From the IMG/VR virus record IMGVR_UViG_638341087_000011: a stretch of DNA of 5,495 bases; one strand, 5' to 3'. The first letter of the stretch is position 1. Every line of letters begins with the position of its first letter. The translations under genes and the position numbers were made by a program. A model generated the notes under the pieces. The model was given only the letters and a program-made list of their open reading frames with translations, had not been told where the DNA came from and ran no database searches. Of the stretch, positions 3,374 to 5,495 are shown one piece after another. This DNA comes from a virus (taxonomy: Duplodnaviria; Heunggongvirae; Uroviricota; Caudoviricetes).

Positions 3374-3678
3374 AGGCTATAAACCGACTAACAACTAAAT
3401 ACTGAAGATTTAAATCAGAAACGATTTTTATTAAATCCTTAACCGGAGGGATTCTGCACCCTCAGAACATCAGGAGGCCGTCTGAAAGGGCGGAACAGAT
3501 AATGCTTACGTTGAAACATTTTATCGACATACCAACATGGTTAGCCGTCATTGCTTTTGTTAAAATACACATCCACTTTTCTGTGCAATGTTTAACCACT
3601 GGTCATATCAAATGGCATTCATGCGAACCATGATATAGAATCATGGCTTGAGAGAGTCGATGAAAGCGCAACTATGGT

Positions 3679-4257
3679 ATGAGAGACATTGATGTAAGAA
3701 AGGCTGTGCATGCCAAGATTCTGAGAGATCATCATAAAGATCCTGACACCCTAATCATTGATGAGTTTACGATGAATCTAGGGGCTAGCAGAGCTGATAT
3801 AGCAGTGATCAATGGGCTTATACATGGTTATGAGTTGAAGAGCAAGAGTGATAACTTGCTCAGATTACCAGCGCAGGTGCAACATTACTCATCAGTGATG
3901 GATAAAGTAACTTTGGTTGTCTCTGATTGCCATCTTTATGATGCTTTAAGCATAGTTCCATCATGGTGGGGGATAAAGCAAGTTACGCAAGGTGCACGGC
4001 AAGGTATCCATTTAAAAACAATTCGAACTAGCAAGTTGAATCCACAAGTGGACAAACTTTCCTTAACAATGCTTCTTTGGAAAGATGAATTGCTTTCCCT
4101 ATTAAGTGATGTAGGGGAGCTACAGAATTTGAAAAATAAACCTAAACGCGTCTTATGGTCAAAACTCGCCAATAGTATGGATGTTGGCGAGCTTCGTGAA
4201 GCTGTTCGAGTTAAACTTAAAGCCCGTAAAGAGTGGCGAGTTGCTCAACAACCTTAG
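3679..4257 (+). CDS. Small protein with PD-(D/E)xK-type nuclease motif (E29...D40...E52-x-K54); possibly sce7726/MmcB-like; first gene of the convergent cargo pair
   Basis: ORF-track ORF. The N-terminal region LIIDEF...ASRADIAVINGLIHGYELKSK has the acidic-acidic-ExK arrangement of restriction-endonuclease-fold proteins (D40 codon 3796-3798, E52 3832-3834, K54 3838-3840). GC is low, about 37% in a sampled line. Weak RBS; a possible extended -10 TGaTATAGA lies at 3631-3639. Confidence 0.68.
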   Translation: MRDIDVRKAVHAKILRDHHKDPDTLIIDEFTMNLGASRADIAVINGLIHGYELKSKSDNLLRLPAQVQHYSSVMDKVTLVVSDCHLYDALSIVPSWWGIKQVTQGARQGIHLKTIRTSKLNPQVDKLSLTMLLWKDELLSLLSDVGELQNLKNKPKRVLWSKLANSMDVGELREAVRVKLKARKEWRVAQQP

Positions 4258-5314
4258 TTATGTGATGGTTTTGCCCAATCCTACGCCATACCTCTGGGCT
4301 ACCAAATTTATAGTTACCAGAGGGATTGGCTTTGTAGGCTTGATACTCGTTTGCATAATATTCTATGTCTCTATCTCCCGCACAGAATGTAGGCCCTGAA
4401 TATTCTCGATGAGCAAGAATATCCTCACTATGTTTACCATATTGTTCATAACCAAAGCGATTAGCTACTCTTCCTCGAAATACCCAAAAGTCATTATCTC
4501 CAGAGTATCTGACGCTGGCAGATACGCTAGGGAATCGCGTCGAAAGCCTATTAAAGTCGGGGTGCTGTACTCCATAATCACTATAAATCACATTTCTGGC
4601 AAGTTCTTTTCTATTCATTAAACTCTGCCATAAAATCCACTCGATTCGAGGTTGAGAATATAGACCAACAGAAATATCACTGAGATCTGTAGGAAATGAA
4701 CCCCCAGAAAGAATCACTTTTCTGTATTCATTGAGGTGCGCCAGATTGTTTATCAATCCCATTGCCAAAGTATATAGTTCGCCGGAATTAAGTTTATCCT
4801 CGGTTAACTCATCTCTTAAGTCAATAATTATATCAATATTTGATAAAGGAATTCCCAGATGATTAATGTAATGCGTTATTAATTGTGGGTTAACCAGATC
4901 TAACGTGGTTAATCTCAAGCATATTTCATTCTGCATTAATTCATCAATCGCTCTTTTATAGTTAGATGGGCGAGTTGGTGAACTGACAGGAATAACTCTT
5001 ATCCCCATATCTCTAACTTGATTAACCGCATTTATTATAGGGTAATGATCTTCAGGAGAAATAAAATGCTCTTCAATTAATAATCCATCAATATAAACAC
5101 CTTGCATATCTGAGCAAGATTTTGAGACTTTCTTTCCGAACTCTATAAGAGTCTCGTTATAACTCTTTAAGGCAATACCTGAATCAGGGTCAATTGGCAC
5201 TGGTTCAATTTCGAGTAATGGCAAAATTTTTGATTTCTTTTCAATGAATAGCTGCGATAAAGCTGATAACTCAGAACGTTTCGCTTTCAGAATAGGAATA
5301 TATGAAATTGTCAT
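4217..5314 (-). CDS. Beta-protein-family-like (sce7725-like) protein, 365 aa; second gene of the convergent cargo pair
   Basis: ORF-track ORF. N-terminus MTISYIPILKAKRSELSALSQL matches my recollection of the conserved N-terminal signature of the uncharacterised Beta-protein family (Pfam Beta_protein; NCBI sce7725-like). GC is very low, about 28-35% in sampled lines. RBS-like AAGGT lies upstream of the ATG; candidate promoter with -35 TTGCCA (complement of 5385-5390) and -10 TTCAAT (complement of 5362-5367), 17-bp spacer. Confidence 0.78.
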   Translation of the reverse strand: MTISYIPILKAKRSELSALSQLFIEKKSKILPLLEIEPVPIDPDSGIALKSYNETLIEFGKKVSKSCSDMQGVYIDGLLIEEHFISPEDHYPIINAVNQVRDMGIRVIPVSSPTRPSNYKRAIDELMQNEICLRLTTLDLVNPQLITHYINHLGIPLSNIDIIIDLRDELTEDKLNSGELYTLAMGLINNLAHLNEYRKVILSGGSFPTDLSDISVGLYSQPRIEWILWQSLMNRKELARNVIYSDYGVQHPDFNRLSTRFPSVSASVRYSGDNDFWVFRGRVANRFGYEQYGKHSEDILAHREYSGPTFCAGDRDIEYYANEYQAYKANPSGNYKFGSPEVWRRIGQNHHITKVVEQLATLYGL

Positions 5315-5495
5315 GTTAATACCTTATACAGAATCAATTAACAATTAATGGTTCTTCGGACATTGAAATTTATATCGCAAAAATTGGCAAACTCTCCTCG
5401 ACTACTCACTTGTGGGTATCCTGGCGTAAAAGGAATGACTTGGCAATACCCGGTGTGATCATAAGTCATTGAAAATGATCATTTTTATCAGTCTT

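What the first reader, a model, noticed from the sequence alone, without database searches (positions are those of the whole stretch)
3374..5495. Sharp compositional discontinuity: AT-rich block downstream of the GC-rich replication module
Manual GC counts of 60-nt lines give about 53% (901-960) and 60% (2041-2100) in the early/replication genes, about 38-45% in the small coupled ORFs (3061-3120, 3181-3240), about 37% in 3721-3780, and 28-35% in 4801-4920. Such a drop indicates horizontally acquired cargo with a different evolutionary origin from the prophage backbone, and defines the likely left boundary of the cassette near 3374-3450.
Basis: seen in the sequence. Interest (0 to 1): 0.6.

Follow-up and report, generated by a model that had tools for sequence, protein, structure and literature searches.

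The report
Prophage hotspot carrying nuclease–TIM-barrel gene pair
The AT-rich block is a rare 2.2-kb accessory cassette in a swap-prone slot of an E. coli lambdoid prophage, and it carries only a nuclease gene and an overlapping, oppositely oriented TIM-barrel gene, a pair that two known anti-phage systems (P4 gop-beta-cII, and PD-lambda-2-type loci) also contain.

Summary
The GC counts are exact and the drop is real. It is stepwise, not sharp: the best change-point is 2922, not 3374-3450.

Comparative data, not composition, define the cargo. It is a 2.2-kb cassette from window 3494 to about 5690, roughly 195 nt past the window end. It lies between a conserved 64-nt intergenic island (3430-3493, in 2262 of 5426 E. 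coli genomes) and the hok/sok leader. Only 93 genomes carry the cassette, always whole, in the same slot, and almost always at 99% identity or more. Other prophages carry different cargo there.

The cassette encodes a cII/sce7726-family PD-(D/E)xK nuclease (3679-4257, +) and a beta-family TIM-barrel protein (4217-5314, -). The genes are convergent with a 41-nt 3' overlap.

In all 76 assessable loci across many phyla, beta is paired with this nuclease in the same convergent arrangement. 75 of 76 overlaps share one reading phase.

P4 adds gop to the pair. PD-lambda-2-type loci add HigB and a HigA-peptidase. This cassette has neither.

The cassette is most likely a minimal prophage-borne anti-phage or toxin-antitoxin-like module. 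That function is inferred, not shown.

Low GC travels with the module in every host, so it is not a simple donor signature.

The parts
2815..3069 (+). orf84 (phrog_4030, function unknown). This is the first AT-rich gene, and the compositional change-point (2922) lies inside it. It is not part of the cassette.
   Evidence: GC 42.4%. PHROG hit at 1.7e-38. Together with orf103 it forms a separate mosaic module present in 794 genomes and absent from phage 640R1.
3062..3373 (+). orf103 (phrog_1372, function unknown). AT-rich, part of the orf84/orf103 mosaic module, not part of the cassette.
   Evidence: GC 43.9%. PHROG hit at 1.1e-54. Present in O157 prophages that lack the cassette.
3430..3493 (+). 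Conserved 64-nt intergenic island, the left anchor of the hotspot. It has two hairpins: GAGGG-N8-CCCTC and CCGYCY-GAAA-GGGCGG. AGGAGG lies directly before the second hairpin. The first gene of whatever cargo follows starts 7-10 nt after the island.
   Evidence: Found in 2262 genomes at 2962 places, with homology ending at window 3493 in nearly all listed hits. Near-invariant in 8 prophages with different cargo; the variable positions in hairpin 2 are C/T changes that keep G-U pairs on the + strand. No Rfam family matches. The folding energy is not better than shuffled sequence, z = -0.6.
3494..5495 (.). The accessory cassette proper. It continues about 195 nt past the window end, to window-equivalent position ~5690 (L001 17686), where the hok/sok leader begins.
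   Evidence: Present in 93 of 5426 genomes, always at 80% coverage or more; 92 of 93 copies are at least 99% identical. The left junction is intact in 91 genomes and the right junction in 92; elsewhere homology stops exactly at 3493 and restarts at L001 17687. Identity to L001 is 99.9%, against 96.65% for the adjacent backbone.
3494..3678 (+). Cassette leader upstream of the nuclease gene. It is non-coding or holds a non-conserved 43-aa ORF (3502-3633). A weak promoter-like site lies at 3612-3641. IS1 is inserted at 3514-3521 in phage Rac-SA53.
   Evidence: Not conserved in orthologous pairs of other genera, where DNA homology starts exactly at 3679; tblastn with the 43-aa ORF finds nothing. 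Promoter-like sites are no more frequent than in shuffles. IS1 with its 8-bp duplication AAACATTT.
3679..4257 (+). cII / sce7726-family protein (192 aa): predicted PD-(D/E)xK nuclease with motif E29, D40, E52-x-K54 and Q66, plus a C-terminal helical region.
4217..4257 (.). 41-nt antiparallel overlap of the two coding 3' ends.
   Evidence: Read directly from the sequence. 39 of 41 nt are identical in Dickeya, although the proteins are only 63-71% identical. An overlap is present in 76 of 76 assessable loci, and 75 of 76 have the same phase.
4217..5314 (-). Beta-family protein (365 aa, Pfam PF14350): predicted (beta/alpha)8 TIM barrel with invariant polar residues at the C-terminal ends of its strands.
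5315..5495 (-). Start of the roughly 375-nt leader upstream of beta. It is non-coding and extends out of the window. There is no gop, HigB or HigA-peptidase gene here.
   Evidence: The largest ORF is 43 aa and is not conserved. tblastn with P4 Gop gives E = 1.6 or worse.

Best explanation
SHOWN. The window is part of a Rac/Qin-type lambdoid prophage of E. coli. Between the replication module and the hok-rusA-Q module lies a recombination hotspot. It is bounded on the left by a conserved 64-nt intergenic island (3430-3493) and on the right by the hok/sok leader. In about 1.7% of complete E. coli genomes this slot holds a 2.2-kb cassette (window 3494 to about 5690) that is nearly identical everywhere and more conserved than its flanks. 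It therefore spreads as a unit, presumably by homologous recombination at the two anchors. The cassette's only conserved content is a convergent gene pair whose 3' ends overlap by 41 nt. One gene encodes a cII/sce7726-family protein with a PD-(D/E)xK nuclease fold and an intact catalytic motif. The other encodes a beta-family TIM-barrel protein. In every assessable relative found across bacterial phyla the pair is kept in the same convergent, overlapping arrangement, and the relative reading phase is the same in 75 of 76. The pair has been co-inherited without partner swapping. It occurs alone (here and in other Enterobacterales and Firmicutes), with gop (P4), or with HigB plus a HigA-M78 peptidase (PD-lambda-2 type). 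Its low GC is a property of the module in all hosts.

INFERRED. The pair is a minimal prophage-borne anti-phage (abortive-infection or toxin-antitoxin-like) module. The nuclease is the effector. The TIM-barrel protein is the partner that restrains or licenses it. The overlapping convergent transcription units couple the expression of the two genes and make them hard to separate by recombination. In this prophage the nuclease gene runs with the early rightward operon and beta runs against it, so prophage induction or read-through would shift the balance towards the nuclease.
For: Prophage context and slot.

Rarity, integrity and constant junctions of the cassette. Cassette identity 99.9% against 96.65% for the backbone.

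Island in 2262 genomes, with homology ending at 3493. Six sampled prophages, plus phage 640R1 and the pPE4 phage, carry other cargo there.

Family assignments. Structures and folds.

Universal pairing: 76 of 78 loci have the convergent pair and the other two are cut by contig ends. 75 of 76 overlaps are congruent to 2 mod 3. Catalytic and barrel residues are invariant, and the mirror-tree correlation is r = 0.88 against a permutation maximum of 0.19.

The same pair sits in known phage accessory or defence slots: the P2 gpA-portal hotspot in Dickeya beside HicAB, the lysis-terminase slot in Photorhabdus and in a second E. coli subtype, and an Acinetobacter phage region.

Experimental precedent for relatives: P4 gop-beta-cII protects against lambda and P1 (PMC9122126) and causes cell death when triggered by a phage accessory protein (bioRxiv 10.1101/2023.04.06.535777). 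[quoted passage not shown]

No gop, HigB or HigA is present here.
Against: No experiment exists on a two-gene beta/cII module.

In both studied relatives the toxic component is encoded by the extra upstream genes (Gop in P4; PD-lambda-2B in PD-lambda-2). The nuclease was not implicated in either.

The published PD-lambda-2 clone extends only 396 nt beyond the beta homologue. If a convergent nuclease gene exists in that strain, defence worked with it truncated. That argues against the nuclease being the universal effector.

The TIM barrel has no specific structural relative, so its activity is unknown.

No promoters or terminators above chance were detected for either gene.

P4's name 'cII' comes from a lysogeny phenotype, as far as I recall; I could not check this because the 1990 paper is not held.

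The scan that gave 76 of 76 kept only the 80 beta relatives closest to the query. More distant beta proteins may behave differently. One acidobacterial cII-like gene has no called beta partner.
Confidence: 0.7

Rival explanations
1. The pair is an addiction or stabilisation (toxin-antitoxin-like) module. Its selected effect is to keep itself and the prophage region in the genome, not to exclude other phages.
For: Gop/beta in P4 and the A/B pair in PD-lambda-2 behave as toxin and antidote. The interlocked 3' ends make loss of one gene alone difficult. The neighbouring gene is hok/sok, another addiction-type locus. In Dickeya the pair lies beside HicAB.
Against: Relatives give measurable phage protection. 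The module sits in slots known to hold defence genes. The cassette is rare (1.7% of genomes) and not fixed in the prophage lineage. The two roles are not mutually exclusive.
Confidence: 0.15
2. The pair serves the carrying phage's own life cycle. Possible roles are lysogeny control (as the P4 name cII suggests), DNA repair or recombination (MmcB-like nuclease), or degradation of host DNA after induction.
For: One source names a homologue 'DNA repair protein MmcB-like', and the top structural hit 3dnx belongs to that kind. The nuclease gene is co-directional with the flanking phage operon here and in three other lambdoid contexts.
Against: The pair is absent from about 96% of prophages that have the same slot. 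It also occurs outside recognisable phage contexts and in very diverse phyla. In P4 the region is called non-essential (title of Ghisotti 1990, cited).
Confidence: 0.1
3. The compositional shift reflects only the generally AT-rich nature of lambdoid accessory (nin-like) regions, and the block is ordinary vertically inherited backbone.
For: GC already falls at 2922, in genes outside the cassette. Alternative cargos in the slot have 41-47% GC. The immunity region (1-607) has 41%.
Against: The block is present in 93 genomes, against 2262 with the left anchor. Its ends are fixed and its identity is much higher than that of the flanks. It is the GC and dinucleotide extreme of the prophage. It is found with at least three different replication modules.
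Confidence: 0.03

Closest known systems
Gop-beta-cII system of satellite phage P4 (DefenseFinder/PADLOC 'gop_beta_cll')
   Same: It has a beta-family protein (PF14350) and a cII/sce7726-family protein (PF26915) encoded convergently. It is carried in a hotspot of a mobile element. P4's version protects against lambda and P1 and behaves as a triggered cell-death system.
   Different: There is no gop here. The proteins are distant: beta 22% and cII 28% identity, and the PADLOC 'beta' model scores only 1e-3. P4 cII has about 70 extra C-terminal residues. In P4 the two genes are separated by 27 nt with a shared terminator, whereas here they overlap by 41 nt.
PD-lambda-2 (Vassallo et al. 2022)
   Same: The beta protein matches PD-Lambda-2_C best, at 6.5e-41. 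[quoted passage not shown] In 48 of 78 diverse loci, PD-Lambda-2_A and/or B homologues lie directly upstream of a beta gene that has the same convergent nuclease partner.
   Different: The HigB-like A and HigA-M78 peptidase B genes are absent here. The published system is defined as three genes without the nuclease, and its clone could hold at most a 5'-truncated copy.
sce7726-family proteins (NCBIfam NF033832; Pfam PF26915 Phage_P4_cII), named after a Sorangium cellulosum locus
   Same: The 192-aa protein is a full-length member, at 191 bits against a cut-off of 70. A Sorangium genome in the scan has the same convergent beta/cII pair (locus L057).
   Different: The beta proteins tested, including the Sorangium one, match no NCBIfam model at E = 0.01 or better. 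I therefore could not confirm that 'sce7725' is the beta family.
Accessory or defence hotspots of temperate phages (P2 and P4 hotspots; lambdoid nin-type mosaic regions)
   Same: Conserved anchors flank interchangeable cargo. The cargo is rare and AT-rich, and the same module recurs in the P2 gpA-portal hotspot in Dickeya.
   Different: I found no description of this particular slot (the 64-nt island to hok/sok in Rac/Qin-type prophages) in the papers I searched. Most of its alternative cargo is small co-directional ORFs of unknown function, not recognisable defence genes.
PD-(D/E)xK nucleases of the MmcB-like kind (PDB 3dnx)
   Different: There is no detectable sequence match to any solved structure, by phmmer or by profile at E up to 10. 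The extra C-terminal helical region and the obligate beta partner are features of this family.

Membership tests
Gop-beta-cII (P4-type) system | gop toxin gene directly upstream of beta in the same operon | tested here: not met
   tblastn with P4 Gop against the cassette and its flanks gives E = 1.6 or worse. The largest ORF in the ~375 nt upstream of beta is 43 aa and is not conserved.
Gop-beta-cII (P4-type) system | beta-family protein (PF14350) | tested here: met
   Pfam hit at 2.3e-51 over the full length. Similarity to P4 beta itself is weak: 22% identity and PADLOC 'beta' at 1e-3.
Gop-beta-cII (P4-type) system | cII-family protein encoded convergently to beta | tested here: met
   PADLOC 'cll' 2.4e-28; 28% identity to P4 cII; convergent arrangement.
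Gop-beta-cII (P4-type) system | Protection against phages, or cell death on a phage trigger | not testable with these tools
   Known only for the P4-type locus.
PD-lambda-2 | HigB-like component A | tested here: not met
   No ORF of suitable size flanks beta. The cassette holds only the two genes.
PD-lambda-2 | HigA (Xre)-M78 peptidase component B | tested here: not met
   A protein of about 400 aa cannot fit, and none is annotated or found.
PD-lambda-2 | Component C (beta homologue) | tested here: met
   PADLOC PD-Lambda-2_C at 6.5e-41 and 1.3e-37.
beta/cII (sce7726-type) convergent gene pair | Both families present, convergent, with overlapping 3' ends in the common phase (overlap congruent to 2 mod 3) | tested here: met
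   The overlap is 41 nt (41 mod 3 = 2). The same holds in 75 of 76 loci from many phyla.
beta/cII (sce7726-type) convergent gene pair | sce7726_fam score above NCBI's cut-off | tested here: met
   191.1 bits against a cut-off of 70.
PD-(D/E)xK nuclease superfamily (cII-like protein) | Restriction-endonuclease-like fold | tested here: met
PD-(D/E)xK nuclease superfamily (cII-like protein) | Catalytic motif D...(D/E)xK with an upstream acidic residue | tested here: met
   E29, D40, E52 and K54 are present in all 76 diverse homologues where the position is covered. Their placement in the active site of the model was not inspected.
PD-(D/E)xK nuclease superfamily (cII-like protein) | Nuclease activity | not testable with these tools
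   Needs a biochemical assay.
TIM-barrel enzymes (beta protein) | (beta/alpha)8 barrel with conserved polar residues at the C-terminal ends of strands | tested here: met
Prophage accessory hotspot | Conserved flanks with interchangeable content among related prophages | tested here: met
   Left anchor in 2262 genomes, right anchor in 2325, cassette in 93. Eight other contents were seen.

The most novel reading that the evidence does not exclude
The beta (TIM barrel) and cII (PD-(D/E)xK nuclease) pair, locked together by a phase-conserved antiparallel 3' overlap, is an ancient self-sufficient immunity or addiction module found across bacterial phyla. Gop in P4 and HigB/HigA-peptidase in PD-lambda-2 are lineage-specific add-ons. 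On this reading the nuclease, which has no assigned role in P4 and is not part of the three-gene definition of PD-lambda-2, is the common effector, and the overlap itself is a regulatory device. Two 'different' known defence systems would then be variants of one family, and this prophage cassette would be that family's minimal natural form.
Probability: 0.35. Interest if true: 0.65.

Novelty: new variant of a known kind. Interest (0 to 1): 0.45.

Why it matters
The compositional observation is ordinary: an AT-rich accessory cassette in a prophage hotspot, whose genes RefSeq already names by family.

Three further points are of more interest:
- It identifies a sharply bounded exchange slot (the 64-nt island to hok/sok) present in more than 40% of complete E. 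coli genomes. That slot could be mined for accessory and defence genes, as was done for the P2 and P4 hotspots.
- The cassette is a natural two-gene form of a family known only as three-gene systems. It lacks the components so far held responsible for toxicity. This makes the role of beta and of the unexplained nuclease directly testable.
- The arrangement of the pair (convergent, overlapping, same phase in 75 of 76 loci from Proteobacteria to Patescibacteria) is unusually conserved for a mobile module. This suggests the overlap is functional. It also suggests that PD-lambda-2-type loci have an unrecognised fourth gene.

Tried and rejected
Searches and scans that found nothing useful:
- Rfam scan of the whole window at E = 1 or better: nothing relevant.
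- Consensus promoter and terminator scans of the cassette and its extension: no more sites than in shuffled sequence, so no transcription signals are claimed.
- Sequence and profile searches of both proteins against all PDB chains: no relatives.
- Beta proteins against NCBIfam: no model matched, so the 'sce7725 = beta' idea could not be confirmed.
- Gop homologue search: negative.

Ideas considered and dropped:
- The 43-aa ORFs at 3502-3633 (+) and 5338-5469 (-) as possible third genes. They are not conserved in orthologous loci, and DNA homology starts and ends exactly at the two start codons.
- The 64-nt island as a stable RNA structure. Its folding energy is not better than shuffles (z = -0.6), so the hairpin/ribosome-binding-site reading rests only on conservation and on C/T changes that keep G-U pairs.
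- The island hit in an 'Actinobacillus' phage as cross-genus evidence. That phage has the same lambdoid layout and adds nothing beyond another example of the slot.
- A link between beta and the DNA base-exchange enzyme DpdA. DpdA is one of hundreds of TIM barrels at similar Z (10.9), so there is no specific support.

Literature:
- The original P4 paper (Ghisotti 1990, PMC249035) is not held.

Technical:
- I first thought some loci were missing from the script machine. Each file in fact holds several records.
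Full report
OBSERVATION

The window falls from 52.1% GC (608-2922) to 39.0% (2923-5495). The likelihood-ratio statistic for this split is 32.9, against a maximum of 4.9 in shuffles. The fall is stepwise, not sharp:
- DUF977 gene, 50.8%
- orf84, 42.4%
- orf103, 43.9%
- intergenic region, 39.3%
- cII-like gene, 40.9%
- beta gene, 37.2% (GC3 29.8%)

The best change-point is 2922, inside orf84, not 3374-3450. On the scale of the whole prophage (locus L001) the block is the extreme. The slot has 37.8% GC, while no other 2-kb chunk is below 42.8%. Its dinucleotide signature distance from the rest of the prophage is 118, against a null maximum of 85.

WHERE THE WINDOW COMES FROM

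The window matches a Rac/Qin-type lambdoid prophage of E. coli. The best record is 98.2% identical over the full length. The gene order is: LexA/cI-like repressor, cro/dicC, ydaT, an O-like replisome organiser, DUF977 (lygF/ren-like), orf84, orf103, an sce7726-family gene, a beta-family gene on the other strand, and then hokD, DUF968, rusA and the antiterminator outside the window. In phage Rac-SA53 the depositors had already labelled the two genes 'CII phage-like protein' and 'beta'.

THE REAL BOUNDARIES

Comparison with other prophages defines the cargo much better than composition does.

Left boundary. A 64-nt intergenic island (3430-3493) is present in 2262 of 5426 complete genomes, at 2962 places. 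In nearly all listed hits homology stops at window position 3493. A probe across this junction is intact in 91 genomes, and elsewhere it stops at 3493.

Right boundary. Homology to prophages lacking the block resumes at L001 17680-17687, the start of the hok/sok leader. This corresponds to window position about 5690, roughly 195 nt beyond the window end. That junction is intact in 92 genomes.

The block between the boundaries (queried as 3494-5495) occurs in only 93 genomes. It is always whole, and 92 of 93 copies are at least 99% identical. Against the closest chromosome it is 99.9% identical, while the adjacent backbone is 96.65%. It is combined with at least three different replication modules.

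Other prophages hold different cargo between the same anchors:
- DUF4014 plus DUF551
- DUF7167 plus a string of small ORFs
- a hypothetical gene, an HNH endonuclease and another hypothetical gene
- insertion sequences

The segment 2815-3429 (orf84 and orf103) is a further, independently assorting module. It is found in 794 genomes.

WHAT THE LOW GC MEANS

The alternative cargos in this slot have 41-47% GC, against a backbone of about 50-54%. The same gene pair in a Dickeya P2-like prophage has 39-41% GC between flanks of 55-57%. Across 70 loci from many phyla the pair is AT-richer than its flanks in 63, with a median difference of -3.2 points (p about 3e-11). Low GC is therefore an intrinsic property of this mobile module and of the slot. 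It is not a readable signature of a particular donor.

THE GENES

The 365-aa protein (4217-5314, -) belongs to Pfam Beta_protein. It matches PD-Lambda-2_C much better than P4 beta. Its model (pLDDT 92.5) is a TIM barrel with no specific solved relative. Ten polar or aromatic residues are conserved in 76-77 of 77 sequences, and several lie at the C-terminal ends of barrel strands, the usual active-site face.

There is no gop, HigB or HigA-peptidase gene. DNA similarity to orthologous pairs in other genera starts exactly at one start codon and ends at the other. The conserved unit is therefore the two genes only.

THE PAIR AS A UNIT

The two genes converge and their 3' ends overlap by 41 nt. That overlap is 39/41 identical in Dickeya, although the proteins are only 63-71% identical.

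The same arrangement appears in several settings:
- a Dickeya P2-like prophage, between gpA and portal and beside HicAB
- Photorhabdus lambdoid prophages, between the lysis and terminase genes
- Paenibacillus, at 35% identity
- an unidentified chromosomal context
- a second E. coli subtype
- Acinetobacter

A scan of one genome per species, using only beta-derived patterns, returned 78 loci from Proteobacteria, Firmicutes, Bacteroidota, Patescibacteria, Acidobacteriota, Planctomycetota, Chloroflexota and others. Of these, 76 have a convergent cII-family gene overlapping beta by 8-140 nt (mode 50). The other two are cut by contig ends.

In 75 of 76 loci the overlap is congruent to 2 mod 3. This means the arrangement has a single origin and has not been broken and re-formed. 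Pairwise identities of the two proteins correlate strongly (r = 0.88, against a permutation maximum of 0.19), so the two genes have been co-inherited without partner swapping.

In P4 the genes are also convergent, but they are separated by 27 nt and preceded by gop.

In 48 of the 78 loci the beta gene is preceded by homologues of PD-Lambda-2_A (HigB-like) and/or PD-Lambda-2_B (HigA-M78 peptidase). In 30 loci, including all close relatives of this cassette, it is not.

HOW IT PROBABLY WORKS

Two relatives have been tested. [quoted passage not shown] It causes cell death when a phage accessory protein is expressed. PD-lambda-2 is an abortive-infection system in which component B is toxic, A neutralises it, and the beta homologue C is needed for defence.

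The beta/nuclease pair is the only invariant part, and this cassette has nothing else. The simplest model is therefore a minimal anti-phage or toxin-antitoxin-like module in which the nuclease is the effector and beta controls it. The overlapping convergent transcripts would couple the expression of the two genes.

All of this is inference. A serious caveat is that the PD-lambda-2 clone ends 396 nt beyond the beta homologue, so any convergent nuclease gene there would have lacked its 5' end. Whether that strain has such a gene was not checked.

Rival readings are pure addiction, a role in the phage's own cycle, and ordinary backbone. They are listed with their tests. The last is contradicted by the comparative data.

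VERDICT

The feature is a new variant of a known kind, a two-gene form of the gop-beta-cII / PD-lambda-2 family in a lambdoid prophage slot. Interest is moderate. The compositional finding itself is ordinary. The universal, phase-locked nuclease/TIM-barrel pair and the well-defined hotspot are worth follow-up.

Noticed in passing
window 3430-3510: The conserved island ends with AGGAGG, a 6-bp hairpin closed by a GAAA tetraloop (CCGYCY-GAAA-GGGCGG), then 7-10 nt and the start codon of whatever cargo gene follows. The hairpin would bring the Shine-Dalgarno sequence to normal spacing from the start codon, as I recall for phage T4 gene 38. The variable positions keep G-U pairs on the + strand only. 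No Rfam family matches, and the folding energy is not better than shuffles.
   Followed up: partly
loci L034, L036, L040 and about 45 others among L020-L097: PD-lambda-2-type loci (HigB-like A, HigA-M78 peptidase B, beta-like C) carry a fourth, convergent cII-family nuclease gene overlapping C. The published system is described as three genes, and its clone (ECOR42 QOYB01000002, 228989-232396) could hold only a 5'-truncated copy. The E. coli locus itself was not inspected.
   Followed up: partly
locus L016 3134-4763 (also L017): A second E. coli subtype of the pair (nuclease 54% identical, 206 aa; beta 355 aa; 59-nt overlap) sits in a different lambdoid slot, between the Rz-type lysis gene and the small terminase gene (Nu1).
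   Followed up: no
window 3514-3521; hits H26, H27 and H87: IS1 is inserted in the cassette leader in phage Rac-SA53, with the duplication AAACATTT. In strain PEC240 an IS1 splits the beta gene. Strain CAU16175 also has an IS1 within the matched region, but where it lies relative to the cassette was not checked. This may be a sign of cost or toxicity, but there are too few cases to judge.
   Followed up: no
window 1801-2300: A GC-rich peak (60%) lies inside the O-like replisome organiser gene. Its N- and C-terminal halves match different PHROG families, and a low-complexity DKDTDKDTD stretch lies between them. Cassette-bearing prophages carry at least three alternative replication modules, so the replication gene is itself mosaic.
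   Followed up: no
locus L019 4001-7062: An acidobacterial cII-family gene has no called beta partner. It lies in a defence island between a Type III restriction-modification system and a HigB plus M78-peptidase pair. A 780-nt uncalled gap follows the nuclease gene.
   Followed up: no
locus L010 5001-7585: In a Dickeya zeae P2-like prophage the pair occupies the gpA-portal defence hotspot, directly beside a HicA/HicB toxin-antitoxin pair.
   Followed up: no
window 1-607: The immunity region (end of the repressor gene and the divergent promoter region) is also low in GC (41.4%) and is separated from the replication module by a second significant change-point at 607.
   Followed up: no
hits H97, H152 and H160 (NZ_CP025840.1, strain 214-4): This genome matches the island and both junction probes at 100% identity. 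It may be closer to the window's source than the best full-length hit (98.2%).
   Followed up: no
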